A stretch of 64,000 bases of DNA from Shigella phage JK55. The DNA lies in sequence record MK962758. One strand, written 5' to 3'. Each line of letters begins with the position of its first letter. Positions within the stretch are counted from its first letter, which is position 1. This document shows positions 1 through 60,250 of the stretch, piece by piece. The notes beneath the pieces were generated by a model, which saw only the letters and a list, made by a program, of their open reading frames with translations, made no database searches and was not told the origin of the DNA. Both the position numbers and the translations under genes were made by a program.

Positions 1-1101
1 ATGCGCATGGTAAACGACCACGCAGAAGTGATTAAGAGTTCAACTTCTTTGGAGACATCTCAAGCACAGATTACAATGACACCTGAAATGTTCAGCCTTT
101 TGAGTTCAGGTGTATACACATTCAAAGAAAGGGCAGTGATTCGTGAACTGTCATGTAACGCAGTAGATGCTCAAAAAGAAGCTGGAAAAGAGAACATCCC
201 ATTCCATGTGCATTTACCTACTCGATTTGAGCCTTACTTTGAAGTCCGTGACTTTGGAACTGGTTTAACCCATGACAAAGTAATGAGTTTGTATCTGAAC
301 TATGGGGCTTCTACGAAGAATGACTCCAATGATTACATTGGTGCAATGGGTATCGGCTCAAAATCCCCATTTGCAATTGCTCAGTCATTCACAGTATCTA
401 GCTATGTTGATGGTGTTGTTAATAAGTACTCTGTTTACCTTGAGAATGGTATCCCTCAAGTAACTAAGCTTACTACCAACCCAACAAATGAACCCAATGG
501 TTTAGCTGTACGTGTGGCAGTTGCTGACCATCGTATTTCAAAGTTCTTTGAAGAGGCTGGTCACGTATACTCATACTTTGCTGTGAAACCAGAAAGTAAT
601 ATTGTATATGATGACGTGTTAGCAGATATGAACGTCATTGCCCGTGAAGAGGGTGTTTATGATGCCATGATTCATAAGCAAAGCTGGCGTTCTAGTGGTA
701 ACAGGACAGAGTTTAATGTGGTGATGGGTAACATTGCCTACCCTGTTAACATGGAAGCATTACTTGGTGATGATTTCTTCAAAATCTTGCCAGAATTTTT
801 CCGTAGGAGCGTAGACCTTGTAAACATCTACATGCCTATTGGTTCAGTTGCTATTGCAGCTTCTCGTGAAGCATTACAGATGAATGACACGACAAAAAAT
901 GTTATCATTGAGGCTACTAAAAAGATAACTGAAGCCATTACAAAGGATGTTATCAAGAAAGTTAATAGCCAACCTACACTCATGGATGCCGCACAGGCTT
1001 ATGCTGAGTTACGTTTGAACTCACGAGAGATGTTTAATGCTGTGTGTCCAAAGCTAGAGTGGGTGGCGTTAAGCTTGATTCTCTGGAAGAAGAATTGCTA
1101 A
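1..1101 (+). CDS. rIIA: rIIA-like protein, N-terminal part (GHKL-type ATPase fold)
   Basis: GHKL motifs visible in translation: N-box RELSCNAVDA, G1 box DFGTG, G2-like GAMGIGSKS; PxGSxxIAxSREAL segment typical of rIIA family; followed by rIIB-like gene. Ends at stop 1099-1101 while an overlapping frame continues (see 1044..2366). Confidence 0.6.
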   Translation: MRMVNDHAEVIKSSTSLETSQAQITMTPEMFSLLSSGVYTFKERAVIRELSCNAVDAQKEAGKENIPFHVHLPTRFEPYFEVRDFGTGLTHDKVMSLYLNYGASTKNDSNDYIGAMGIGSKSPFAIAQSFTVSSYVDGVVNKYSVYLENGIPQVTKLTTNPTNEPNGLAVRVAVADHRISKFFEEAGHVYSYFAVKPESNIVYDDVLADMNVIAREEGVYDAMIHKQSWRSSGNRTEFNVVMGNIAYPVNMEALLGDDFFKILPEFFRRSVDLVNIYMPIGSVAIAASREALQMNDTTKNVIIEATKKITEAITKDVIKKVNSQPTLMDAAQAYAELRLNSREMFNAVCPKLEWVALSLILWKKNC

Positions 1102-2366
1102 ACATTCGTCGTGGAATTATCTACGCAGAAGACGGCTCAGTTATTTATGAACGTGACGGCAAAGGTAATATTAAGGTTGATAGGAACGGGAACAATATCC
1201 CTAAAGTAGATTATCTTTATGACCCAGTTGCTTATGTCAAGTTCAACTCTTTAGAGAGTAAGATTCGTGCAACATCGCTTTCCTACACTCAAGAGGCAAG
1301 TATGTTCAATATCTTTGGTGCAATGCGTAAAAGCCAAATTGAACAGTTTTTGTTTGTTATAAATGACCGTCGCAATAAAAATGGTACTGAGAAGACTGTA
1401 GGACGCAATCAGATTCTGCGTGGTGCATGTCGAGACTATGCCAGCGAGTCAAGCCTGTTTCACAGATATAATGGTATTGTCTTTGTATTCTCTACAGAGA
1501 AAGAGCTAGATGACTTAATCAATCTGCACAAACTTGATAAGAGCTTGTTAAAGATTGTGAAGATGTCTGATAAGGAACACCATTATCAGCGTAAAGAAGC
1601 TGTGAGAGGTGTTGTAAAACTCTGGAAAGCTGTTCCAGCAGAAGGTGTAGCCTCATACACAGAGGTGTCAGAAGACTTAGACACGATTGAAGAGCCTCAG
1701 CTTTATATTAAGGCAGTAGGTGACACAGTTGATGGCGAATGTTTTTGCTCATCTCCAGATGATGTAGCTAAGTCAGTTGCCAATGTCATTGGAAAGACAG
1801 TCTATGTTTTCCGAAAAGCAAATTGGAAAAAGATACCAGAAGACTGGATTGAAGTAGATGAGAAGCTCTTGAACGACAGCTTAACTGATGTTCATTGGAT
1901 TAATCATAACAGGTATATGACACGCGTCTGTATGCGTGGTGTCCTAGACCTTACAAGCTGTTGGATTATTACCAGAAACTTTACGTTCAATAACAGGAAG
2001 ATTTCTGATGGTTATTGCTATTCACGGGATACAAACAAAACTATCTTCCTAGAAGGTAATGAAGATGCTGTTGAGGCAATGTTCGGTAAAATCCAATACA
2101 TTGCTGCACAATTTGCATACACTTACACTATTAGTGTGTTGCAAGATTTGAAAAGGTGTCTTGATAATGATACAAAACTTTACAAGAAAATTAAGAAAGC
2201 TGGTGACCGTATGTTTATTAAGGTAACAAACTACTTCTCAAAAAGAAAACAAGAAAACTTCTTGCTTTCTCATCTAGATTGGAATAAAGTGTCACCCGTC
2301 GAAGTAAGTAAGTTCTTAGGCTTTGATGTGAAGTGTGTTCCAGAAGGAACTACAATTTACGATTAA
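1044..2366 (+). CDS. rIIA: rIIA-like protein, C-terminal part (continues in -1 frame relative to 1..1101; frameshifted or split gene)
   Basis: ORF opens (GTG at 1044) inside the 3' end of the previous ORF; combined length about 790 aa fits rIIA-size proteins; frame change coincides with a (TG)3 tract at 1041-1047. Confidence 0.45.
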   Translation: MSKARVGGVKLDSLEEELLNIRRGIIYAEDGSVIYERDGKGNIKVDRNGNNIPKVDYLYDPVAYVKFNSLESKIRATSLSYTQEASMFNIFGAMRKSQIEQFLFVINDRRNKNGTEKTVGRNQILRGACRDYASESSLFHRYNGIVFVFSTEKELDDLINLHKLDKSLLKIVKMSDKEHHYQRKEAVRGVVKLWKAVPAEGVASYTEVSEDLDTIEEPQLYIKAVGDTVDGECFCSSPDDVAKSVANVIGKTVYVFRKANWKKIPEDWIEVDEKLLNDSLTDVHWINHNRYMTRVCMRGVLDLTSCWIITRNFTFNNRKISDGYCYSRDTNKTIFLEGNEDAVEAMFGKIQYIAAQFAYTYTISVLQDLKRCLDNDTKLYKKIKKAGDRMFIKVTNYFSKRKQENFLLSHLDWNKVSPVEVSKFLGFDVKCVPEGTTIYD

Positions 2367-2412: not shown

Positions 2413-3555
2413 ATGATTTATCAACTAACAAGAGAGAGTAATAAGATGACTACTAAAACTAAAGCACAGATTGACGCAGAAATTTACGAACTGGTTAAAG
2501 AAGGTAAGCTGACTAAAACAGCTATTGCACAGAAGTTCAATACTTCAACCCGTTCAGTTGGTCGTGCTGTAGAGCGTCATGAAGCAACCTTAAAAGGTAA
2601 GAAAAAGGTAGCTTCTAAACCAGCTACGAAGACTTTGAAGCAAGTTGCTAAATCAGTTAAAAAGAAAGCTGACAAACCAGTTGAAAAGGTTGTTAAAGAG
2701 CCTGTACAGAAAGCTCCGGTAAATAAACTGCATGAAGCTATGCAGAATGGCAACCAGATTGAGTACATGATTACTGGCGACTCTGTTATCATGACTTTCG
2801 GTGCAGATTCTGAAATCGTTGAATCTACCCATCCGAACTACAAAGAAATCGTGATGGCTGTTGTATCCGGTGAGTATAAGAAAGCTTTCGAACTGATGAA
2901 CATTCGTAAGTCTATCGAAAACTTCACTCAGGGTGCTATCACCATCAAAGGTGACAAGTTATTCTACGGTGCTGTTGAGATGCGTTCTACTCTGGTTGAC
3001 CGTATTCTTCACATGATGAAGACTGGAGATAAGGGTTTTGAACGCCTTGTGATGTTCTTCGAAAAACTGATGGAAAACCCATCTAAAGATTCTGTAGAAC
3101 AACTTTGGGGATTCGTATCTCACCTTGATGTTGAAATTGATGAAGAAGGCTACATCATTGGTTGGAAGAAAGTCTCTACTCGTGAAGGCAAGCTGGTTGA
3201 CTCCCACACCTACAGAGTACCTAATGATTTGGGTAACATTGTAGAAATGCCACGTTGGATGGTTGATAATAACCGTAACGTGACTTGCTCTCAAGGTCTT
3301 CACGTTGGTGCTTGGGATTACGTTCGTTACTTCTCAGGTGATACAATCCTGAAGGTTCGTGTCCATCCACGAGATGTTGTATCTGTTCCAACTGATTACA
3401 ACGATATGAAGATGCGTTCGTCTCGTTATGAAGTTGCAGCAATCGTTGATAATCAACGTAAAGTGCTGAAAGAATGGGATGGCAAGACTGAAGCTTTGCA
3501 TGTCATCGTTGGTACTGCTGGAGAACTTATCTCTCAACGTAAACGTGAAATCTAA
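2413..3555 (+). CDS. rIIB: rIIB-like protein
   Basis: Immediately downstream of rIIA-like gene; C-terminal HPRDVVSVPTDYNDMKMRSSRYEV and LVDRIL segments resemble rIIB family as I recall it; true start may be ATG at 2446. Confidence 0.45.
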   Translation: MIYQLTRESNKMTTKTKAQIDAEIYELVKEGKLTKTAIAQKFNTSTRSVGRAVERHEATLKGKKKVASKPATKTLKQVAKSVKKKADKPVEKVVKEPVQKAPVNKLHEAMQNGNQIEYMITGDSVIMTFGADSEIVESTHPNYKEIVMAVVSGEYKKAFELMNIRKSIENFTQGAITIKGDKLFYGAVEMRSTLVDRILHMMKTGDKGFERLVMFFEKLMENPSKDSVEQLWGFVSHLDVEIDEEGYIIGWKKVSTREGKLVDSHTYRVPNDLGNIVEMPRWMVDNNRNVTCSQGLHVGAWDYVRYFSGDTILKVRVHPRDVVSVPTDYNDMKMRSSRYEVAAIVDNQRKVLKEWDGKTEALHVIVGTAGELISQRKREI

Positions 3556-3655: not shown

Positions 3656-4204
3656 ATGAAGAAATTGATTCTAGGTTTGTGCTTAATGTTTACAGCACAC
3701 TTATCTTATGCAGTTGACTGCCCAGAGCTATCAATTAGCCAAAAAGTAAACATGTTAAAAGCTTACCAGTATGGTGAGAATAACATGGGCAAAGGTTGGG
3801 GTATCACTCTAGCTGCTATAGCCTTACAAGAGTCAGAGTTAGGTCTGAAGGTAGAGAATAAAAAGACACATGATTATGGTATTTTCCAGAATCACTTGAA
3901 GACTGTTGTAAAGCGTAACAAAATTAGTCCTAATGTGGCTAAAAAGAAACTCTTAAAAGACTTTGACTATGCTGCGAAGGAAACGCACAAAGAGCTTGAG
4001 TTTTGGACAAAGGTGCATGGTCAGCCAAAGTCAAAGAAGACTTTACAAAAAGTTTTAGCATCATATAATGCTGGGTATTCGTACAGAATCCCTAAAGCTA
4101 AGAAATACTCTCAAGATGTCTATAACAATATGAAAGTTATCGCTCAATGTGAATTTGCAACAAACATTTCTAAGGTAAATCATGAAAAAATTAAGAAAGT
4201 CTGA
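3656..4204 (+). CDS. secreted lytic transglycosylase-like protein (SLT-domain motifs)
   Basis: N-terminal signal peptide (MKKLILGLCLMFTAHLSYA); motifs LQESELGL, YGIFQ and SYNAG match the E-S / G-x-x-Q / AYNxG pattern of family-1 lytic transglycosylases. Confidence 0.45.
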   Translation: MKKLILGLCLMFTAHLSYAVDCPELSISQKVNMLKAYQYGENNMGKGWGITLAAIALQESELGLKVENKKTHDYGIFQNHLKTVVKRNKISPNVAKKKLLKDFDYAAKETHKELEFWTKVHGQPKSKKTLQKVLASYNAGYSYRIPKAKKYSQDVYNNMKVIAQCEFATNISKVNHEKIKKV

Positions 4205-4877
4205 TGAAGTCCTGTGTCATGCTTATGACTTGCATCCTCATGAGTTTGGTCTTGATTCCTGTGTATGGACTCCAGAACAGTGCAGGGATTTTGAAGACAC
4301 TGCAAGAGAAGTTGTATGTTCACTTGAAGATTTCCACACATCAGAGCCAATTGTGAATGTTGTAGATAAAGAGACTGGACAAACTATAGGTGTAAGTCGT
4401 GATAGCTTAGTCATAGTCAATAAAGACCTTGTAGAAAAAGGTAACCTCATCTTAGCAGATATTGATGGTGTTCTTACAAATTTTAATCACGAAGATTGCT
4501 CAACGGAATTGACTGATGGGTCATTCTCACAGTACACTAATCTTCTTGACTCTGTAAGAGCAAAACCAACGTATGTCTTTAGTATTATTGATGCAATTGC
4601 TAATCATGCTGCCATTGGACTCTTGACAGCGAGAGGTGAATCTCAGAGAATACCTACTGAGATGTTTTTAAGGCATAACACAGAGCATGACTACATGCTT
4701 TTTATGCGTGGTTTTGGGACTAACTCTATAAGTGCAGAAAGTTTGAAAGTGAGGATGATTCAGTCTTGCATTCTGCCTTACTTTAATATAGTATGTTTTA
4801 TAGAAGATACAGAGAAGAATGTGCAGAAGGTGAACAGAATCCTTCCACACATCAAAACCATGTTAGTTAAACATTGA
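4182..4877 (+). CDS. HAD-superfamily phosphatase-like protein
   Basis: Motif ILADIDGVLTNF matches HAD motif I (DxDGx); otherwise unassigned. Confidence 0.35.
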   Translation: MKKLRKSDEVLCHAYDLHPHEFGLDSCVWTPEQCRDFEDTAREVVCSLEDFHTSEPIVNVVDKETGQTIGVSRDSLVIVNKDLVEKGNLILADIDGVLTNFNHEDCSTELTDGSFSQYTNLLDSVRAKPTYVFSIIDAIANHAAIGLLTARGESQRIPTEMFLRHNTEHDYMLFMRGFGTNSISAESLKVRMIQSCILPYFNIVCFIEDTEKNVQKVNRILPHIKTMLVKH

Positions 4878-4887
4878 GAGAAAACTT

Positions 4888-5352
4888 ATGAACAATATCA
4901 TTACGGTAGCACTGGACGTTACGGCAAACAAATCTGAAGTAGTTCGTAACATTATCAAGAGCAACTTTGAGGGTAAAATCTTCCGTGCTGTCAATGTAAA
5001 AGCAGACGGTAACATTCGGGAGTATCGTGCCCTTTTGAATGTTAAGAAACACGTCAAAGGTGCTGGTTCAACGACTGCACACAAAGAAAACCTGATGACC
5101 ATCTATGATATGGGGATGGCTTCAGAATTAGGTGCTGAAGGTATCGTTAAAGAAGGTGCTCCGTATCGCTCTTTCAATCTGGAAACTGCTCTCATGCTTT
5201 CCTTTACAAGTGGTTCTAAAACAACTACTTATCTCTTTACTGATGCTGCAACGGTATCTGCTATCAAGGATAGCACTGTCAAAGCTGGGGTAGCTGCTGC
5301 TGCAAAAGCTTCTTCGATGGCTGCAAATGTCCTTGCTAAAGTCCTCGGTTAA
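4888..5352 (+). CDS. hypothetical protein
   Basis: ORF with upstream purine-rich RBS; followed by terminator. Confidence 0.5.
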   Translation: MNNIITVALDVTANKSEVVRNIIKSNFEGKIFRAVNVKADGNIREYRALLNVKKHVKGAGSTTAHKENLMTIYDMGMASELGAEGIVKEGAPYRSFNLETALMLSFTSGSKTTTYLFTDAATVSAIKDSTVKAGVAAAAKASSMAANVLAKVLG

Positions 5353-5364
5353 GGTTAAGATACA

Positions 5365-5386
5365 GGCTCCTTCGGGAGCCTTTTTC
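5365..5386 (+). terminator. rho-independent terminator (GGCTCC-TTCG-GGAGCC + TTTTT)
   Basis: Perfect 6-bp GC stem, UUCG loop, T-run. Confidence 0.75.
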
Positions 5387-5404
5387 ATTTCAGGAGATTG
5401 TTAA

Positions 5405-5752
5405 ATGACATTTAAAGAGTTCTGTCAAGCTACTTTCATAATTGTTTTCTTAGTTGGGGCAGGTGTCTGGGGAGGATACTCTTACAGAGACTATCAAGTT
5501 GCTGAAGCTGAGCTAAATAATGAGAAACTAATAAGTGTTGCCAAAGATGCTTATCAGGAAGGTTTAGCCACACTGAGCACCAATTACAAAAATGATTTGA
5601 AAGATGTGCTTGCTAAGAATAAGCACACAAAAGAGGTACTAACATATGAAAAAACTAAGCCAGAGTTTTATAATGTTTGTGTTACTGATAATTATGTCAG
5701 GGTGTTCAACGAACAAAGTGAACAGTACATTCAAAAACTCCCAAGTAAGTGA
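5405..5752 (+). CDS. i-spanin candidate (Rz-like, N-terminal TM anchor)
   Basis: Single N-terminal TM helix (FIIVFLVGAGVWGG) then charged helical periplasmic domain; 3' end overlaps a lipoprotein ORF in another frame (classic Rz/Rz1 overlap). Confidence 0.45.
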   Translation: MTFKEFCQATFIIVFLVGAGVWGGYSYRDYQVAEAELNNEKLISVAKDAYQEGLATLSTNYKNDLKDVLAKNKHTKEVLTYEKTKPEFYNVCVTDNYVRVFNEQSEQYIQKLPSK

Positions 5753-5915
5753 GAGTGATAAGTACACTCAAGAAGATTCAAGATTCACTATCAAAGGTAA
5801 TACTGGTAGTGATGTGGCAGCAGCCCTTGAGTTCTATCGTGATGGATTTTACCAGTGCACAATCAAAGCTAATAACCTTATTGATATGATTTTATTAGGA
5901 AATAAACAGCAATGA
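5646..5915 (+). CDS. o-spanin candidate (Rz1-like outer-membrane lipoprotein)
   Basis: Signal peptide with lipobox IIMSGC; starts inside 3' end of the preceding TM-protein gene in a different frame. Confidence 0.45.
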   Translation: MKKLSQSFIMFVLLIIMSGCSTNKVNSTFKNSQVSESDKYTQEDSRFTIKGNTGSDVAAALEFYRDGFYQCTIKANNLIDMILLGNKQQ

Positions 5916-6181
5916 CAGAGAATGAAGATACTTTTTACGTAGAAGGGTACTTACTGTTACCGCGACCAAAAGAAACCTATATGCGAATTGACTTCATACC
6001 AACCATTATGGATAATGTGATGTGTCATATCTTTATGCAGGGTGTCACAGCACAGCTTAAGCATGTTGGTAAAGAGTGCAAAATAAAGGTTGACACTCAT
6101 CCAGAAATCAAAGAGAATCACTACACATGGTTCTTACCAGACTCTAAAGAAATCTTAGCAGTTCTTAAAACGAGGAAGTAA
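5912..6181 (+). CDS. hypothetical protein
   Basis: ORF, start overlaps previous stop (ATGA). Confidence 0.45.
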   Translation: MTENEDTFYVEGYLLLPRPKETYMRIDFIPTIMDNVMCHIFMQGVTAQLKHVGKECKIKVDTHPEIKENHYTWFLPDSKEILAVLKTRK

Positions 6182-6183
6182 CT

Positions 6184-6510
6184 ATGCAGATTAATGGAAG
6201 AGACTTTGTAGCCGTTTACTACGAGAAAGGTAAAGAAGTTGGCGTAGCACAAGTGTCTTATGGCAATGGTAAGTGGCTATATGGAACAATCGCAGTAGTT
6301 GGAACGAGAAGTGATACAAAAACTTTCAAAGATTGTGTTGAACTTCTTGAAGAATCCATCCATAATCATTGGTGTCTGATATGGATGACTGACAACGAAG
6401 TGAAGGAGCGTTTCAAAAAGATTGATATCAACATTGATAGTATTGAGCATGTTGATTTATATGAGCTAACCGAGAAGGTAAACTATGAAAGTAATACTAG
6501 CCAGAGATAA
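6184..6510 (+). CDS. hypothetical protein
   Basis: ORF tightly packed after previous gene. Confidence 0.45.
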   Translation: MQINGRDFVAVYYEKGKEVGVAQVSYGNGKWLYGTIAVVGTRSDTKTFKDCVELLEESIHNHWCLIWMTDNEVKERFKKIDINIDSIEHVDLYELTEKVNYESNTSQR

Positions 6511-6712
6511 AAAGACACGAAAACTTATCAGGTCAGCAGTGTTCATTGGACGAAATGAGGTCATCCCATTTACAGCAAATGATGTGATAGCTTACAGGAA
6601 GAACTTAGTATTCACTGACTGCTTACGTGGCTTCATCTCTGAACCATTGGAAAACTTTAAAAGTCGTTGTGGTAAAGGCATCATCATTCAAGAGGCAATT
6701 ATTCATGGCTGA
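6485..6712 (+). CDS. hypothetical protein
   Basis: ORF overlapping neighbours by a few codons. Confidence 0.4.
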   Translation: MKVILARDKKTRKLIRSAVFIGRNEVIPFTANDVIAYRKNLVFTDCLRGFISEPLENFKSRCGKGIIIQEAIIHG

Positions 6713-9632: not shown

Positions 9633-9929
9633 ATGAAATTATCAAATCAAGTGCGTGAAAATTTGAGCAAATTACTCAACAAAATTGATTTCATTGAAAC
9701 ATCAAGGAATAGTCATGATGTTATGGAATGGTTACACGGCAAAATAAAAGGTCGTCGTGTAGTGATTTGCTTATGGAATAGTTGCAGGGAGTATAAAAAA
9801 CCTGTATTGCAAGTCAATATTTACGATGATACTTTTAAAAGCCCTGTAAAGTCTAAAAGCGATTTATTAGAATCTTATGAGATAACTGTAAGTGGCAAAG
9901 TATCACGTAAAGAGGAAACACCATGTTAA
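9633..9929 (+). CDS. hypothetical small early protein
   Basis: ORF behind cassette; 3' end overlaps next ORF. Confidence 0.5.
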   Translation: MKLSNQVRENLSKLLNKIDFIETSRNSHDVMEWLHGKIKGRRVVICLWNSCREYKKPVLQVNIYDDTFKSPVKSKSDLLESYEITVSGKVSRKEETPC

Positions 9930-10255
9930 TGACTGGTATCACTGCAATCATTGCCATTTTCGCGCTATATAAGGCATATAAAGCCTATAATCTAGCAAAT
10001 AAGGCAATCACACAGCAGGTTAGCAATAACCTTGTAGAAAGCTTTCTAGGACGTCTCAGTGATGAGCAAATAAAGCGGCTAGAGATGAGCTTCAGATATA
10101 AAGCGAAAACCTATCAGATAAGTGACATCTTCAAAGATGATTTTCAGCTTGTCGATGATTATAATGCTCTGATAAATGCTTTAAATATCAGTGACTTAAA
10201 AGACTACTACGCTGTAATTGTTCAAGAACTGAGCAAACGAAAAAATTCCTCTTGA
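9923..10255 (+). CDS. hypothetical small membrane protein (N-terminal TM helix)
   Basis: Hydrophobic segment LMTGITAIIAIFALY; start overlaps previous gene; no own cassette. Confidence 0.45.
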   Translation: MLMTGITAIIAIFALYKAYKAYNLANKAITQQVSNNLVESFLGRLSDEQIKRLEMSFRYKAKTYQISDIFKDDFQLVDDYNALINALNISDLKDYYAVIVQELSKRKNSS

Positions 10256-17636: not shown

Positions 17637-18170
17637 CTATAATTGTAGGTTGCATTCTTTACTTACCTCTTCAAGTTTAACCTCAGAATCCTTAAGTCGT
17701 TTCTTATGAACTCTGAACCTTATTAGTGAGATGATAATACCAGCTAAAGGAACAGCATACAAGTACCAGATATCGTGTATCTTTGCAGTAATCTGTGTAA
17801 TGGTCAAGTCTTGAGCTATGCAGCTAATTGCTGATACTGCCAGTAACATTGCTAAGAAGAACGCCAGTACCATAACAATACTTAGGCAACCTCTGGCATG
17901 GTGTTCATGCTTAATACACTTATTCTTTTCGTCAACAACTCTGTTGTAGTCATTTGCAAAGTCTCTGTAGAAAGCTTTCAAGTATTCTTGAGTGTAGCCT
18001 TCAAAGCAACCTGTACCATACCAATAATCACCACCAAAATGTGCTATGATACCAACCTCTCCATTTGGTTTCGTCACTCTTAAAGAAGTATGATGGCAAG
18101 TATCCTGAAAATCTATCTTGTATCTTTCTTCGTAAATCATTTTCCAACCCCTCTCAATCGTTTGTTCCAC
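17637..18170 (-). CDS. hypothetical membrane protein (two predicted TM helices in C-terminal half)
   Basis: Hydrophobic stretches VMVLAFFLAMLLAVSAI and YLYAVPLAGIIISLI. Confidence 0.5.
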   Translation of the reverse strand: MEQTIERGWKMIYEERYKIDFQDTCHHTSLRVTKPNGEVGIIAHFGGDYWYGTGCFEGYTQEYLKAFYRDFANDYNRVVDEKNKCIKHEHHARGCLSIVMVLAFFLAMLLAVSAISCIAQDLTITQITAKIHDIWYLYAVPLAGIIISLIRFRVHKKRLKDSEVKLEEVSKECNLQL

Positions 18171-20481: not shown

Positions 20482-20946
20482 TTACTTTGGATATAGATTG
20501 TCAAGATAAATGTCAGCTTCCATTCTACGTCTGTTTTTCAGTCCGTTTGAAGTGACCTTCTGACCTTTGACTGTAACCTTGTTCCACCACTGCATAGCTT
20601 CTGCACAACCTACCTTATTACCAGCATTGTGTCGCTTGATAAATGTAGAATCCTGCATAGCTGTGATACCGATGTTGTATGTTTCACTTACAAGTGCATC
20701 GAACTCGTTCTGAGAAGTTGGAACCTTGATAGCTTTATTCACTGCTGCAACGAACTTCTCAACATCTGCAAGAAGATACCGTTCAGCTTGTTCAGCAGTA
20801 ATTTTCATACCCATCTTAACAGGTTTTCCGTCAATACGGATTGTACCATACCCGATTGTTGGGATTCCGGCAGAGTCTTCGTAAGCCTCTAACTTCAGAC
20901 CTTCAAAGAACTTAATAGCTTCTAAACCTTTTCTTGAGAGTTGCAT
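20482..20946 (-). CDS. endolysin, T4-lysozyme-like (glycoside hydrolase family 24)
   Basis: N-terminal GLEAIKFFEGLKLEAYEDSAGIPTIGYGT matches the catalytic E...D...T region of GH24 phage lysozymes. Confidence 0.75.
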   Translation of the reverse strand: MQLSRKGLEAIKFFEGLKLEAYEDSAGIPTIGYGTIRIDGKPVKMGMKITAEQAERYLLADVEKFVAAVNKAIKVPTSQNEFDALVSETYNIGITAMQDSTFIKRHNAGNKVGCAEAMQWWNKVTVKGQKVTSNGLKNRRRMEADIYLDNLYPK

Positions 20947-21830
20947 TATGCCTCCCCTGCTGGGTTAACTGTAACTGTTGCCGCATTAGATGTTACAGAG
21001 CCACCTGCGCCAGTCACTACACAGGTGTAGCTTCCTGCATCAGCAGCGGTTGCACCTTCTTTGGTGTAAGTTGCAGCAGTTGCGTCTGGGATGACTTCCT
21101 CATCTTTCTTCCACTGATAACCTGTTGCACCTGTTGCCACAACATTCAACGTTAAGGTCTCACCTTCATTGATTTCTTGATTGGTTGGCTGTTGAGTGAT
21201 GACAGGAAGTGCATTCACAGTCACTGTTGCTGCATCTGAGGTAACACTTGTTCCACCCTCTCCAGATACAACACAAGTGTATGAACCAGCATCAGAAGGT
21301 GCTACTGACTGTTTTGTGTAAGTTGCAGAATTGGCACTAGGGATGTCCTCACCATCCTTCTTCCACTGATATCCAGTGGCGTTAGTTGCTAGAATGCTTA
21401 GAGTAAGTGTGCCACCCTCATTGACTGTTTGACCTGTCGGTTGCTGAGTAATTGCTGGTGGCTTAATAGCATCCTTCAACTTAGCATTCAACATTGAGAA
21501 CGGCTTAACTCTTGCCAACCATTCACAGTAAATTGTGTCAACATCTTTACCATTGATGATTGCATACTGCAAATCCATGAAGAAATCAGCAGTTCTCATC
21601 TGTGCACCAACACTGTAAAGCAATTCATCACTAAATGGAACTTTGTAGTCTGGTTTGTAGTCAAACTTCTCAACTTCTGCAATATCAGCTTCAGGCCAAT
21701 ATGAACTATAGGTAAGTGGTAAAATAGCCTCTTGATATGTTCTAAAATCATACCTCTTACCAGCCTTTACATTTGCAATGAAACCCTTCACAAACTCTTT
21801 GAAGTCTGGGTAAGTCTTTGCTTTAATCAT
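20946..21830 (-). CDS. protein with N-terminal domain paralogous to 21827..22198 and two C-terminal Ig-like repeats
   Basis: Two about 85-aa repeats each ending AGSYTCVV(S/T)G and ATVTVN (Ig-like signature); N-terminal 125 aa alignable by eye with the adjacent upstream gene product. Confidence 0.55.
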   Translation of the reverse strand: MIKAKTYPDFKEFVKGFIANVKAGKRYDFRTYQEAILPLTYSSYWPEADIAEVEKFDYKPDYKVPFSDELLYSVGAQMRTADFFMDLQYAIINGKDVDTIYCEWLARVKPFSMLNAKLKDAIKPPAITQQPTGQTVNEGGTLTLSILATNATGYQWKKDGEDIPSANSATYTKQSVAPSDAGSYTCVVSGEGGTSVTSDAATVTVNALPVITQQPTNQEINEGETLTLNVVATGATGYQWKKDEEVIPDATAATYTKEGATAADAGSYTCVVTGAGGSVTSNAATVTVNPAGEA

Positions 21831-28405: not shown

Positions 28406-28963
28406 ATGAGATATTTGAAGTATGCTTCATGGATTTTCTTAGCTTTACTAGAACCATTTGCAGCAACCCTAGCAGTCATCTTAGCACCTTTCGTAGTTCC
28501 ATTCTACAGTGAGAAGAAAGGGCATCTACCTTTTGGATTCAGATGGATGGAGACCTATGACAACCCGATTGATGGTGATAAAGGCCACGTTGAGAGATGG
28601 GCTAAGATTAGAAAGATTGGCAAGCTCGGTGTTTATATGCAGAGAGTTGGATGGCTCTGGAGAAACAAAGCTTATAACTTCTCTTACCATGTATTAGGAA
28701 GAGATGTAAAAGATGTTACTAAGTGGAAAGGTAATATCAACGTAAGTTCTGACCCTGAAGATAATCAGACAGGTTATCTCCTAATGTGGAACAACAATGC
28801 TTGGGGATTATTCGCTTTTATTCCGTCAATTAAAATCTTTGGTAAACAGTTTTACTGGAGAATTTATGTTGGATGGAAACTAAAAAGTGTTGTCCCAGAA
28901 GAAAGAGCATTCTCAAGGGAAAGAGTTATGTTGGCATTCTTTATTCATCCACTGAGAAAGTAA
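28406..28963 (+). CDS. hypothetical membrane protein embedded in tRNA cluster
   Basis: N-terminal hydrophobic segments (IFLALLEPFAATLAVILAPFVVPF); AAGAGG RBS 9 nt upstream. Confidence 0.55.
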   Translation: MRYLKYASWIFLALLEPFAATLAVILAPFVVPFYSEKKGHLPFGFRWMETYDNPIDGDKGHVERWAKIRKIGKLGVYMQRVGWLWRNKAYNFSYHVLGRDVKDVTKWKGNINVSSDPEDNQTGYLLMWNNNAWGLFAFIPSIKIFGKQFYWRIYVGWKLKSVVPEERAFSRERVMLAFFIHPLRK

Positions 28964-53693: not shown

Positions 53694-53891
53694 ATGCCTA
53701 CAATCCTAGCAATTCTTCTAAAAAATCTAGGTAGCTTCTTCTGGAAACTCATTTTATCCCTTCTAAGTGAATACATGATTGAGAAAGTGTTCTTTAGGCT
53801 TGCAAGATATCTTGCGAGTAAAACAGACACACCTATTGATGATGAGTTCGTAGATAACTTAGAAAAAGCTTTTAAGGGGGAGAATAAATGA
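53694..53891 (+). CDS. hypothetical small membrane protein
   Basis: 65 aa with N-terminal hydrophobic helix. Confidence 0.4.
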   Translation: MPTILAILLKNLGSFFWKLILSLLSEYMIEKVFFRLARYLASKTDTPIDDEFVDNLEKAFKGENK

Positions 53892-54259
53892 AGTGGCTAG
53901 AGGAAGCTTTTAAAAACAATATTGGTGCAATTGTTGTTGGTATTTTTAGTGTTATTGGGATGTATACCACTATGCAAGTTTCAAGTGGTAAGCAAGAAGT
54001 GTCTGTCACAACAAAGTTACAGCAGCTAGATAATTATTCCAAAAGTAACTATTCAGCTATTCGTGATTTACAGTCTGACATGAGACTGATTCAGCTAGGG
54101 ATGGAGAACCAGAAAGTTCAGTTAGAGAATGTTAAGGGTGAAAACGCAAAACTTACCAAAACTCTTGATAAATTCTCTGACAGTGTAAATAATCTGGCTC
54201 AATCAGTATCAGCCCTCCAAGCTATTACTGAGAAGAACACAAAGAATACTGAAAAATAA
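53888..54259 (+). CDS. hypothetical membrane-anchored coiled-coil protein
   Basis: TM helix IGAIVVGIFSVIGMYT then heptad-like region. Confidence 0.45.
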   Translation: MKWLEEAFKNNIGAIVVGIFSVIGMYTTMQVSSGKQEVSVTTKLQQLDNYSKSNYSAIRDLQSDMRLIQLGMENQKVQLENVKGENAKLTKTLDKFSDSVNNLAQSVSALQAITEKNTKNTEK

Positions 54260-58289: not shown

Positions 58290-58502
58290 TGGTGAGTACC
58301 CGTTGGTTTATGCTGCTCAGTATACTCACCAAATTTTCTATGTCAACAACTTTTTATAAAAAGTTCTGATAGCTATATGTGTCACGAAACAAAAGATTGT
58401 AAACAAGACACCCATTGCAAAAGATGTGTCCAAAAGCTTACTTGCAACATATGACAATACAAAGACAACCAGTATAAACATAATGACTGTACTGAACATA
58501 GT

Positions 58503-59800: not shown

Positions 59801-60102
59801 TTCCTCTTGCCACCAATTTCTACGTCAATAACTTGAACATCACCAGCAACATCAAACTTATGAATGATGCTTTCCACAGTGTAAGTCCAACCATCAATGC
59901 GAACCAACTCACCTTCTCGTGGGACGATTGGGTTACGTTGAGCTACCGTTGTAGTAGAGTGAACAACATCATAACAATAGATATAGTTTACTAGGACTTC
60001 CATCGTGAAACCCTCACTCAATAACCGTAGTGTGTGATTGACCATTTTTGCCATAGCTATAAGATGTTGTTGTTTGGGAGTTTGGACATCTGACAACAAC
60101 AA
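59797..60102 (-). CDS. hypothetical protein
   Basis: ORF 101 aa. Confidence 0.45.
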   Translation of the reverse strand: MLLSDVQTPKQQHLIAMAKMVNHTLRLLSEGFTMEVLVNYIYCYDVVHSTTTVAQRNPIVPREGELVRIDGWTYTVESIIHKFDVAGDVQVIDVEIGGKRK

Positions 60103-60250
60103 TATCTCTGCTTATAGCATCACCATGTAACTTGTATACTCTGCAATCTTGCATCTCTGGTGGGAGGCTGTAAGAAGCATTTTTATCTTCATAAGAAGGG
60201 TTGCAGCCAGATAGAAAAATAACACCAAGCGCAATTACTGATTTCCACAT
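60014..60250 (-). CDS. small lipoprotein (lipobox LSGC)
   Basis: MWKSVIALGVIFLSGC signal peptide; start taken at internal Met giving a canonical signal peptide. Confidence 0.5.
   Translation of the reverse strand: MWKSVIALGVIFLSGCNPSYEDKNASYSLPPEMQDCRVYKLHGDAISRDIVVVRCPNSQTTTSYSYGKNGQSHTTVIE

What the first reader, a model, noticed from the sequence alone, without database searches (positions are those of the whole stretch)
5405..5915. Overlapped spanin-like gene pair located far from the endolysin
An N-terminally anchored helical protein gene and a lipoprotein gene (lipobox IIMSGC) overlap out of frame, the signature of i-spanin/o-spanin pairs, yet the only recognisable endolysin is 15 kb away on the other strand and no holin is evident next to either. 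Lysis functions appear dispersed, as in T4-type phages; a second small lipoprotein at 60014..60250 may instead serve superinfection exclusion.
Basis: partly seen in the sequence, partly recalled or inferred. Interest (0 to 1): 0.35.

Follow-up and report, generated by a model that had tools for sequence, protein, structure and literature searches.

The report
Felix O1-type overlapped spanin gene pair
These are the two overlapping genes a Felix O1-like phage most likely uses to break the host's outer membrane at the end of infection; the pair and its distance from the other lysis genes are real, but both are already described for this phage group.

Summary

- **Identity of the window:** it is a Felixounavirus genome, about 96-97% identical to Felix O1 and vB_Si_35FD.
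- **The two genes:** ORF 5405..5752 (115 aa) has an N-terminal transmembrane helix and a helical periplasmic part. ORF 5646..5915 (89 aa) has the lipoprotein signal MKKLSQSFIMFVLLIIMSG|C with Ser at +2. They overlap by 107 nt, with the second gene in the +1 frame.
- **Both frames are real genes:** they are intact and the same length in 35 relatives. The overlap loses the wobble-position signature, which indicates dual-coding constraint.
- **Link to lysis:** homologous pairs sit directly behind holin and endolysin genes in P2/HP1-like phages and prophages.
- **Other lysis genes here:** the lysozyme-type endolysin is at 20482..20946 (-), 14.6 kb away. The only annotated holin candidate is at 53888..54259 (+).
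- **Prior description:** Felix O1 is listed among overlapped two-component spanins in Kongari et al. 2018. The Moogle genome paper states that Felix O1-like lysis genes are scattered. Many GenBank records already label these genes i-spanin and o-spanin.
- **Caveats:** no experiment has tested this family. A secreted T4 Vs.1-like protein with transglycosylase motifs lies 1.2 kb upstream. The second lipoprotein is on the minus strand.

The parts
5364..5386 (+). Intrinsic-terminator-like hairpin AGGCTCC-TTCG-GGAGCCT followed by a T-run, about 20 nt before the i-spanin start codon
   Evidence: Terminator scan and RNA fold centroid. An equivalent hairpin precedes the homologous gene in phiEa21-4 and phiEco32, and is annotated as a terminator in Mordin.
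5392..5397 (+). Shine-Dalgarno sequence AGGAGA, 7 nt before the i-spanin ATG
   Evidence: Read directly from the sequence.
5405..5752 (+). i-spanin gene (115 aa). Transmembrane helix about residues 8-26 (nt 5426..5482); periplasmic helix to about residue 71; linker carrying the invariant Cys92 (nt 5678..5680) within the conserved motif KPxFxNxCxxDxYxxxFNE; a second helix at residues 94-110.
   Evidence: ORF list; PHROG 1152 'Rz-like spanin', E 8.9e-42; hydropathy; alignment of 33 homologs; AlphaFold2 secondary structure at pLDDT 61; annotated i-spanin or Rz-like spanin in many GenBank records.
5631..5636 (+). Shine-Dalgarno sequence AAGAGG, 9 nt before the o-spanin ATG, lying inside the i-spanin gene
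   Evidence: Read directly from the sequence. It supports the 89-aa start over the internal Met17 start used in many records.
5646..5915 (+). o-spanin gene (89 aa). Lipoprotein signal residues 1-19; lipidated Cys20 (nt 5703..5705); Ser21 at +2; a linker of about 33 residues; C-terminal helices at residues 54-87 carrying the invariant Cys71 (nt 5856..5858).
   Evidence: ORF list; lipobox and hydropathy; PHROG 4180 E 1.7e-50 and PHROG 456 'Rz-like spanin' E 8e-5; alignment of 25 homologs with C20, T22, G54, C71 and L78 invariant; distant family members carry Pfam LysC PF23793; AlphaFold2 secondary structure at pLDDT 65.
5646..5752 (+). 107-nt dual-coding overlap. It encodes the i-spanin C-terminal conserved motif in frame 0 and the o-spanin signal peptide with lipobox in frame +1.
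   Evidence: Variability is flat across codon positions (27/20/29%) against 74-82% at third positions outside the overlap. An overlap of similar size is kept in distant pairs: 137 nt in phiEa21-4, 116 nt in phiEco32 and 107 nt in a Proteus prophage.
20482..20946 (-). Soluble lysozyme-family endolysin (154 aa). It is the presumed upstream step that frees the spanin complex.
   Evidence: Pfam PF00959, E 2e-40; PHROG 7 'endolysin', E 8e-58; no hydrophobic segment; corresponds to the putative lysin gp35 described in PMC3185647.
53888..54259 (+). Holin candidate (123 aa): one N-terminal transmembrane helix and a long helical C-terminal part, located between the tail fibre gene and thyA.
   Evidence: Hydropathy; PHROG 4038, function unknown; annotated 'holin' or 'putative holin' in Moogle, phiSUSP1, Sf14 and others by inference only. 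Its function is unproven.

Best explanation
The locus encodes a two-component spanin of the overlapped architecture in a Felix O1-like myophage.

Proposed mechanism:
1. The 115-aa product inserts in the inner membrane through its N-terminal helix, N-terminus in and C-terminus out, and extends a mostly helical domain into the periplasm.
2. The 89-aa product is exported and lipidated on Cys20. Its signal peptide is cleaved by signal peptidase II. Because it has Ser rather than Asp at +2, the Lol system sorts it to the inner leaflet of the outer membrane.
3. The two periplasmic domains bind each other and form a bridge threaded through the peptidoglycan. Each has one invariant periplasmic cysteine, which probably forms disulfide-linked dimers.
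4. A holin releases the soluble lysozyme (20482..20946) and the wall is degraded. The bridges can then move and collapse, fusing inner and outer membrane. This is the last step of lysis.

What is shown here: gene anatomy, targeting signals, dual-frame purifying selection, and homology to pairs located in canonical lysis cassettes.

What is inferred from work on lambda Rz/Rz1 and T4 PseT.3/PseT.2: complex formation, disulfide bonding and membrane fusion.
For: - ORFs and overlap are present as described.
- The transmembrane segment, lipobox, Ser at +2 and cysteine positions are as stated.
- PHROG 1152 'Rz-like spanin' matches over the full length at E 9e-42, and PHROG 456 'Rz-like spanin' at E 8e-5.
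- Both ORFs are intact in 35 relatives, and the overlap shows a dual-coding substitution pattern.
- A ribosome-binding site precedes each start.
- Homologous overlapped pairs occur in Kolesnikvirus, in Kuravirus, in Yersinia phage vB_YenM_324 in the order holin, endolysin, i, o, and in Proteus prophages. There the order is PF04550 holin, PF13539 endolysin, i-spanin homolog, then a PF23793 LysC lipoprotein.
- i-spanin Cys92 and o-spanin Cys20 and Cys71 are invariant across 33 and 25 homologs.
- The predicted helix, linker, helix layout fits an i-spanin.
- GenBank annotations agree.
- Felix01, FO1a and UAB_phi87 are listed as overlapped spanins in PMC6139136.
- PMC6139136 also reports that periplasmic cysteines are a general feature of two-component spanins.
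Against: - No experiment on this family was found. All assignments, including those in the literature, are bioinformatic.
- The structure models have low confidence (pLDDT 61 and 65).
- The window o-spanin does not itself reach Pfam LysC or NCBIfam P2_Rz1. The profile comparison with P2 LysC gives only 35% probability.
- Position -3 of the lipobox is Met, outside the strict [LVI][ASTVI][GAS]C consensus quoted in PMC6139136. From my own knowledge, the broader PROSITE lipoprotein rule allows Met there.
- The pair is not next to a holin or endolysin.
- A terminator-like hairpin lies directly upstream, so its time and level of expression are unknown.
Confidence: 0.9

Rival explanations
1. The pair consists of envelope proteins with a non-lytic role. 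One example would be superinfection exclusion or blocking of receptor or DNA entry, as with phage lipoproteins such as T5 Llp or membrane proteins such as T4 Imm and Sp. On this reading, outer-membrane disruption in this phage is achieved some other way.
For: - The pair lies among early-region-type genes (rIIA, rIIB, a Vs.1 homolog, polynucleotide kinase, a macro-domain protein) and far from the endolysin.
- A terminator lies directly upstream.
- There is no experimental proof of a lysis function.
Against: - Homologs of both proteins, in the same overlapped arrangement, sit directly after holin and endolysin in P2/HP1-like phages and prophages.
- The i-spanin matches an Rz-like spanin PHROG over its full length.
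- T4's proven spanins are likewise far from its holin and endolysin (PMC6139136).
- No other spanin candidate is evident in the 64 kb window. The only other lipoprotein has no partner and no C-terminal transmembrane segment.
Confidence: 0.05
2. Only the 115-aa gene is real. The 89-aa reading frame would then be a chance open frame inside and after it, so the 'lipobox' is fortuitous.
For: - Several GenBank records do not call the ORF, or call it from an internal Met, which removes the signal peptide.
- One paper reports a relative as lacking an o-spanin (PMC8300805).
- Alternative-frame ORFs of about 90 codons do occur elsewhere in the window.
Against: - The frame is open at the same length in all 35 relatives.
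- It shows its own codon-position signature downstream of the overlap: 82% of third positions vary against 15-27% of first and second positions.
- It has its own ribosome-binding site.
- Homologs at 27-35% identity keep the lipobox Cys and Cys71.
- The supposedly missing ORF in vB_Si_DR094 is intact.
Confidence: 0.01
3. The spanin pair works mainly with the nearby secreted Vs.1-like transglycosylase-motif protein (3656..4204) rather than with the distant lysozyme. The two would form a partly clustered lysis module.
For: - The 182-aa protein has a cleavable-looking signal peptide and the ES, GIFQ and YNAG motifs typical of SLT lytic transglycosylases. Its Pfam SLT hit has E 9e-4.
- It lies 1.2 kb upstream on the same strand.
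- Some records call it 'putative lysin' or 'transglycosylase SLT domain-containing protein'.
Against: - The Pfam score is below the curated cut-off (19.2 against 21.3 bits), and no solved-structure relative was found by sequence.
- It is a homolog of T4 Vs.1, which is conserved in more than 2000 phage records. Most of those listed label it hypothetical, and none is known to me as an endolysin.
- The terminator at 5364 separates it from the spanins.
- A canonical lysozyme is present elsewhere.
Confidence: 0.04

Closest known systems
Felix O1 / FO1a / UAB_phi87 overlapped two-component spanins (SpaninDB group in Kongari et al. 2018, PMC6139136); GenBank i-spanin and o-spanin of Moogle, Mordin, Mushroom, warpig and others
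   Same: These are the same genes. The proteins are 77-100% identical, with the same lengths (115 and 89 aa), the same 107-nt overlap and the same genomic neighbours.
   Different: Nothing of substance differs. This window has a few amino-acid substitutions, for example o-spanin D44 and I50.
P2 LysB/LysC-type overlapped spanins, and the HP1/P2-like prophage pairs carrying Pfam LysC PF23793
   Same: - The architecture is overlapped, and the i-spanin carries the KPVFxNVCxxDxYVxxFNE motif.
- The o-spanin keeps the lipobox and the conserved C-terminal Cys.
- Members of the same HMM-defined families sit in holin, endolysin, i, o cassettes.
   Different: - The window proteins do not reach the Pfam or NCBIfam LysC thresholds.
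- Profile comparison with P2 LysC and LysB themselves is not significant (35% and 11% probability).
- Here the pair is detached from the holin and endolysin.
T4 PseT.3 / PseT.2 spanins
   Same: - Both systems have the two-component design, similar sizes (117 and 99 aa in the T4 record) and an o-spanin with a helical C-terminal part rather than a proline-rich coil.
- Both lie away from the holin and endolysin and close to a pseT-type polynucleotide kinase gene.
   Different: - The T4 genes are in the separated, not overlapped, architecture.
- There is no detectable sequence similarity beyond the signal peptide.
- T4 has no periplasmic Cys in the i-spanin and two in the o-spanin (PMC6139136). 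Here there is one in each.
Lambda Rz / Rz1
   Same: The functional model is the same: a type II inner-membrane protein with two helices and a linker, an outer-membrane lipoprotein, periplasmic cysteines, and the o-spanin gene in the +1 frame of the i-spanin gene.
   Different: - Rz1 is wholly embedded in Rz and is unstructured according to PMC6139136; that it is proline-rich is from my own knowledge.
- Here the o-spanin extends 163 nt beyond the i-spanin, has no proline at all and is predicted to be helical at its C-terminus.
- No Pfam family reached its curated cut-off for either protein, and none of the weak sub-threshold hits was a lysis family.

Membership tests
Two-component spanin (i-spanin + o-spanin), as defined by Summer et al. 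2007 and Kongari et al. 2018 | The i-spanin is a small protein with a single N-terminal transmembrane helix (type II, N-in/C-out) and a periplasmic domain of more than 50 aa that is largely alpha-helical. | tested here: met
   There is one hydrophobic window, at residues 6-24. About 89 residues follow it. AlphaFold2 predicts helices at 3-71 and 94-110, at low confidence. Orientation is inferred only from flanking charges.
Two-component spanin | The o-spanin has an outer-membrane lipoprotein signal: positive n-region, hydrophobic core, lipobox ending in Cys, and no Asp at +2. | tested here: met
   The signal reads MKK-LSQSFIMFVLLII-MSG-C20-S21. Cys20 is invariant and Ser21 nearly so across 25 homologs. 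Met at -3 lies outside the strict [LVI] consensus quoted in PMC6139136. SignalP and LipoP were not available.
Two-component spanin | The o-spanin gene is embedded in, overlapping with, or immediately downstream of the i-spanin gene on the same strand. | tested here: met
   The genes are overlapped by 107 nt with the o-spanin in the +1 frame. The arrangement is conserved in all relatives examined.
Two-component spanin | Periplasmic cysteine or cysteines are available for intermolecular disulfide bonds. | tested here: met
   There is one periplasmic Cys in each protein, i-spanin C92 and o-spanin C71, and both are invariant. Whether the bonds actually form cannot be tested with these tools.
Two-component spanin | The i- and o-spanin form a physical complex and are required for outer-membrane disruption, shown for example by complementation of lambda Rz-am/Rz1-am. 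| not testable with these tools
   I found no experimental data for this family. The supporting evidence is by association: homologs lie in holin-endolysin cassettes.
PHROG 1152 'Rz-like spanin' | A significant full-length match to the family profile. | tested here: met
   E 8.9e-42, protein residues 1-115 against profile positions 2-124 of 127.
Pfam PF23793 LysC / NCBIfam NF038368 P2_Rz1 (Rz1-like lysis system protein LysC) | A score above the curated cut-off. | tested here: not met
   The window o-spanin gives no hit at E up to 1. One distant member of the seven-sequence o-spanin alignment hits LysC at E 8e-4. Precomputed PF23793 hits exist for eight family members and for the Proteus partner gene. 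P0026 and P0040 score 16.7 and 13.7 bits against a cut-off of 27. The link runs through intermediate sequences only.
T4 PseT.3 / PseT.2 spanin families | Detectable sequence homology of the periplasmic domains. | tested here: not met
   BLASTP gives E 17 for PseT.3 and aligns only the signal peptide of PseT.2. hhalign probabilities are 0.9% and 21%, the latter for the signal peptide only. The fold search of the low-confidence model returned only same-family o-spanins.
Unimolecular spanin (T1 gp11 type), considered for the second lipoprotein at 60014..60250 (-) | An N-terminal lipoprotein signal together with a C-terminal transmembrane helix. | tested here: not met
   The lipobox FLSGC is present, but there is no C-terminal hydrophobic segment; the only hydrophobic window is at residues 6-24.

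The most novel reading that the evidence does not exclude
The spanin pair may travel as a self-contained module of terminator hairpin, ribosome-binding site, i-spanin and overlapped o-spanin. This unit is kept in three unrelated virion types: Felix O1-like and phiEa21-4-like myophages, and phiEco32-like podophages. In the Felix O1-like and phiEa21-4-like phages, as in T4, it lies 0.5 to 2 kb from a pseT-type polynucleotide kinase. In T4 that position is held by a non-homologous spanin pair. On this reading, spanin expression in these phages depends on regulated read-through of the upstream terminator. The kinase-linked position would be an old 'spanin slot' in which one spanin family has replaced another.
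Probability: 0.12. Interest if true: 0.35.

Novelty: already known. Interest (0 to 1): 0.1.

Why it matters
The finding has mostly housekeeping value.

- It confirms that this genome carries a complete set of candidate lysis functions: spanins, lysozyme and a holin candidate.
- It shows that the o-spanin should be annotated from ATG 5646. Many public records start it at an internal Met, which deletes the signal peptide, or leave it unnamed. One paper concluded from this that a relative lacks an o-spanin.
- Felix O1-like phages are widely proposed for biocontrol of Salmonella and E. coli, so correct annotation of lysis genes has some practical use.
- It does not open a new biological question. 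The spanin assignment and the scattered layout have been in the literature since 2015-2018; the absence of a holin-lysin cassette was already noted in 2010.

Tried and rejected
- **Homology to T4 PseT.3 / PseT.2.** I suspected this because a pseT-like kinase lies 0.5 kb upstream. BLASTP and profile comparison found only signal-peptide similarity, so I rejected it.
- **Direct homology to P2 LysB / LysC.** hhalign probabilities were 11% and 35%. This is not significant, so I kept it only as a link through intermediate sequences carrying PF23793.
- **Structure route.** AlphaFold2 on alignments of 25 and 33 sequences gave pLDDT 65 and 61. These models are usable for secondary structure only. Foldseek against BFVD returned only same-family o-spanins. 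I did not run further fold searches because the models are too weak.
- **Pfam and NCBIfam on the window proteins.** No family reached its curated cut-off.
- **Solved structures for the Vs.1-like protein.** No sequence match was found.
- **Translation of 60014..60250 on the plus strand.** The first attempt failed with four stop codons. The gene is on the minus strand.
- **T4 region.** My first guess at the pseT coordinates was wrong; the right region was found.
- **Holin search by transmembrane scan.** This produced several candidates and no decision: 53888..54259; 17637..18170 (-); 58338..58499 (-); 9923..10255; 28406..28963.
- **Not used.** I did not run the search of 1.84 billion representative proteins, because family breadth does not change the verdict.

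Full report
**What the window is.** A megablast of 4800..6600 against GenBank phages gives 257 records. Of these, 210 cover at least 80% of the query in one place, and the best are 96-97% identical (Salmonella phage vB_Si_35FD, Felix O1, Escherichia phages finno and warpig). The window is therefore most of a Felixounavirus (Ounavirinae) genome. It starts at rIIA and runs through rIIB, a T4 Vs.1 homolog, a polynucleotide kinase and the region in question. It then continues through a minus-strand block that contains the lysozyme, the structural genes, thyA/DHFR and further genes.

**Check of the observation.** The ORF list gives 5405..5752 (+, 115 aa, ATG) and 5646..5915 (+, 89 aa, ATG). They share 107 nt, and the second frame is +1 relative to the first.
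- The first protein has a single hydrophobic window near its N-terminus (Kyte-Doolittle maximum 1.75, starting at residue 6) and nothing hydrophobic after that.
- The second protein begins MKKLSQSFIMFVLLIIMSGC. Cys20 is encoded at 5703..5705 and is followed by Ser. This is a lipoprotein signal with a positive n-region, a core of about 13 hydrophobic residues and a lipobox.
- The lipobox has Met at -3. That is outside the strict [LVI][ASTVI][GAS]C consensus quoted by Kongari et al.. From my own knowledge, the broader PROSITE lipoprotein rule allows Met there.
- Ser at +2 predicts Lol-dependent sorting to the outer membrane. This rests on the established '+2 rule', not on a test done here.
- Each start has a Shine-Dalgarno sequence: AGGAGA 7 nt before 5405 and AAGAGG 9 nt before 5646.

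**Is it more than chance?** I collected the same 511-nt segment from 29 IMG/VR viral contigs and five GenBank relatives.
- All 35 relatives keep both frames open at exactly 115 and 89 codons without indels.
- Across the 31 distinct DNA sequences (window included), the part coding only for the i-spanin varies at 27%, 20% and 74% of codon positions 1, 2 and 3. The part coding only for the o-spanin varies at 27%, 15% and 82%.
- In the 104 overlap columns scored, the three phases vary at 27%, 20% and 29%. Overall variability drops from about 41% to 25%.
- Loss of the wobble signature is what two overlapping frames under purifying selection should produce. The o-spanin's own third-position signature downstream of the overlap shows that it is translated.

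**What it is.**
- The 115-aa protein matches PHROG 1152 'Rz-like spanin' over its full length (E 8.9e-42).
- The 89-aa protein matches PHROG 4180 (function unknown, E 1.7e-50) and, weakly, PHROG 456 'Rz-like spanin' (E 8e-5).
- No Pfam or NCBIfam family reaches its cut-off for either protein.
- tblastn finds the o-spanin in 310 phage records and the i-spanin in 402. These include more distant lineages.

In each distant lineage I examined, the two genes occur together and overlapped:

| Lineage | i-spanin length | o-spanin length | Overlap | Source |
|---|---|---|---|---|
| Erwinia phage phiEa21-4 and other Kolesnikvirus | 118 aa | 91 aa | 137 nt | |
| phiEco32-like podophages (Kuravirus) | 116 aa as annotated | about 86 aa | 116 nt | |
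| Yersinia P2-like phage vB_YenM_324 | 113 aa | not fixed | not fixed | |

In phiEco32 the annotated gp38 is too short; the frame actually starts at MRKLNQFF....

**The link to lysis.** The decisive context comes from two places.
- In Yersinia phage vB_YenM_324, the annotated gene order is holin, endolysin, Rz-like spanin, O-spanin.
- In Proteus mirabilis HP1/P2-like prophages, the i-spanin homolog P0138 (profile E 2e-20) lies after a PF04550 holin and a PF13539 endolysin. It overlaps by 107 nt a 72-aa gene that carries Pfam PF23793 LysC.

Profile searches of the 5.8-billion-protein collection returned 58 o-spanin clusters and 229 i-spanin clusters. Eight of the o-spanin clusters carry PF23793, and some are named 'Rz1-like lysis system protein LysC'.

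**Conserved anatomy.**
- In 33 i-spanin homologs, G24, E82, F88, C92 and N102 are invariant. The C-terminal motif KPVFxNVCxxDxYVxxFNE is the most conserved part. That motif is encoded by the very DNA that also encodes the o-spanin signal peptide.
- In 25 o-spanin homologs, C20, T22, G54, C71 and L78 are invariant, and S21, Q33 and N76 nearly so.
- Each subunit therefore has exactly one invariant periplasmic cysteine in the Felix O1 clade. Kongari et al. argue that intermolecular disulfides are a general feature of two-component spanins (PMC6139136).
- AlphaFold2 gave low-confidence models (pLDDT 61 and 65), usable only for secondary structure. The i-spanin has a continuous helix over residues 3-71, a linker at 72-93 and a helix at 94-110. 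The o-spanin has its signal helix, an unstructured stretch at residues 18-53 and helices at 54-75 and 77-87.
- The mature o-spanin contains no proline. This differs from lambda Rz1, which is proline-rich (my own knowledge). It resembles T4 PseT.2 in having a helical C-terminus (PMC6139136).

**Relation to the paradigm systems.** There is no detectable homology to the T4 spanins. BLASTP gives E 17 for PseT.3 and aligns only the signal peptide of PseT.2. hhalign probabilities are 0.9% and 21%. Against P2 LysB and LysC, hhalign gives 11% and 35%. The LysC alignment runs from the lipobox to the conserved Cys. It is suggestive but not significant. The family is therefore best described as the 'Felix O1 group' of overlapped spanins, linked to the Pfam LysC family through intermediates and sharing only its layout with T4.

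**Where the other lysis genes are.**
- The endolysin is 20482..20946 (-): 154 aa, Pfam Phage_lysozyme E 2e-40, with no hydrophobic segment, so it is a soluble, holin-dependent enzyme. It is 14.6 kb from the spanins.
- Its neighbours are a 294-aa protein with two near-identical internal repeats and a 132-aa protein. Neither has a transmembrane segment.
- The spanins' neighbours, 4888..5352 and 5912..6181, also lack transmembrane segments. The statement 'no holin next to either' is therefore correct.
- The only gene annotated as a holin in relatives is the homolog of 53888..54259 (+): 123 aa, one N-terminal transmembrane helix and a long helical tail, placed between the tail fibre gene and thyA. 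That annotation is inferential.
- Other membrane-protein candidates are 17637..18170 (-, two transmembrane segments) and 58338..58499 (-, 53 aa, two transmembrane segments).
- Whichard et al. 2010 already noted that Felix O1 has no holin-lysin cassette, 'as with coliphage T4', and listed several possible holins (PMC3185647).
- Nguyen et al. [quoted passage not shown]
- Kongari et al. 2018 list (Felix01, FO1a, UAB_phi87) among the overlapped two-component spanins (PMC6139136).

**Mechanism, and what is shown versus inferred.** Shown here are the targeting signals, the gene architecture, dual-frame selection, conserved cysteines and homology to pairs in canonical lysis cassettes. Inferred from experimental work on lambda Rz/Rz1 and T4 PseT.3/PseT.2 is the following. 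The two proteins bind through their periplasmic domains and bridge the envelope through the murein meshwork. They are held inactive until the endolysin removes the wall. They then fuse inner and outer membrane. I put 0.9 on this. The remaining doubt is that nobody appears to have tested this family experimentally.

**Rivals.**
- A non-lytic envelope role, such as exclusion, gets 0.05. The early-region neighbourhood and the upstream terminator fit it. The cassette context of the homologs argues against it.
- A chance ORF gets 0.01 and is refuted.
- Cooperation with the nearby Vs.1-like secreted protein rather than the lysozyme gets 0.04. It has SLT-type motifs, but the Pfam score is below threshold (19.2 against 21.3 bits). 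It is a T4 Vs.1 homolog spread over more than 2000 phage records, labelled hypothetical in most of those listed.

**Verdict.** The finding is real and correctly interpreted, but it describes a published feature of Felix O1-like phages. Novelty is 'already known' and interest is about 0.1. The most novel reading still open is the 'spanin slot' idea, at probability about 0.12. It rests on two conserved features. One is the unit of terminator hairpin, ribosome-binding site and overlapped spanin pair. The other is its proximity to a pseT-type kinase in both Felix O1-like phages and T4. Together they could mark a mobile or replaceable slot with read-through-controlled expression.

Noticed in passing
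window 5364..5386; L006 2246..2269; L004 about 2909..2931: A GC-rich hairpin with a TTCG or TCCG tetraloop and a T-run lies about 20 nt before the i-spanin start codon. This holds in Felix O1-like phages, phiEa21-4 and phiEco32, even though the upstream genes differ. There is no room for a promoter between the T-run and the ribosome-binding site. How the spanins are transcribed (read-through, or a start site inside the stem) is unexplained.
   Followed up: partly
window 1..2366 (frameshift near 1060): rIIA is split into two ORFs, 1..1101 and 1044..2366. Compared with Felix O1 there is a 1-nt deletion in a G-run (GAGTGGGGAGG against GAGTGGGTGG). This is either a sequencing error at a homopolymer or a genuine rIIA frameshift.
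   Followed up: partly
window 3656..4204 (+): This 182-aa homolog of T4 Vs.1 has a signal peptide (MKKLILGLCLMFTAHLSYA) and SLT lytic-transglycosylase motifs (QES, GIFQ, YNAG). Its Pfam SLT hit (E 9e-4) is just below the cut-off. It is found in 2127 phage records and labelled hypothetical in most of those listed. It is a second muralytic-looking gene, only 1.2 kb from the spanins.
   Followed up: partly
window 4182..4877 (+) relative to 5405..5915; T4 locus L043 6003..7782: A pseT-type polynucleotide kinase lies 0.5 kb upstream of the spanin pair. In T4 the non-homologous spanins pseT.3 and pseT.2 are also adjacent to pseT, and in phiEa21-4 the kinase is about 2 kb upstream. This may be a conserved linkage or a coincidence.
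   Followed up: no
window 60014..60250 (-) (longest ORF runs to 60274): This is a stand-alone lipoprotein, MWKSVIALGVIFLSGC..., with three cysteines in the mature part. It belongs to PHROG 902 (function unknown). Homologs occur in 584 phage records, including Vibrio, Serratia and Klebsiella phages. It has no C-terminal transmembrane segment and no i-spanin-like partner, so it is not a spanin. Its function is unknown.
   Followed up: partly
L047 1047..1316 (Salmonella phage vB_Si_DR094); L002 3895..4116 (warpig): There are annotation artefacts in public records. The paper on vB_Si_DR094 says only an i-spanin was found, but the full 89-aa o-spanin ORF is intact there and is merely called short and 'hypothetical'. 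Many records and protein clusters start the o-spanin at internal Met17 (73 aa, 'MSGC...'), which removes the signal peptide. phiEco32 gp38 and the vB_YenM_324 O-spanin are also annotated too short.
   Followed up: yes
window 58338..58499 (-) and 17637..18170 (-): Two further membrane-protein genes could be the true holin or antiholin. One is a 53-aa protein with two transmembrane segments and a basic C-terminus. The other is a 167-177-aa protein with two C-terminal transmembrane segments (PHROG 4343, function unknown), 2.3 kb downstream of the endolysin on the same strand.
   Followed up: no
window 20946..21830 (-): The 294-aa gene immediately upstream of the endolysin contains two near-identical repeats, which I judge by eye to be Ig-like (…TQQPTxQxxNEGxTLTLxxxATxATGYQWKKD…SYTCVV…). 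I did not analyse it.
   Followed up: no
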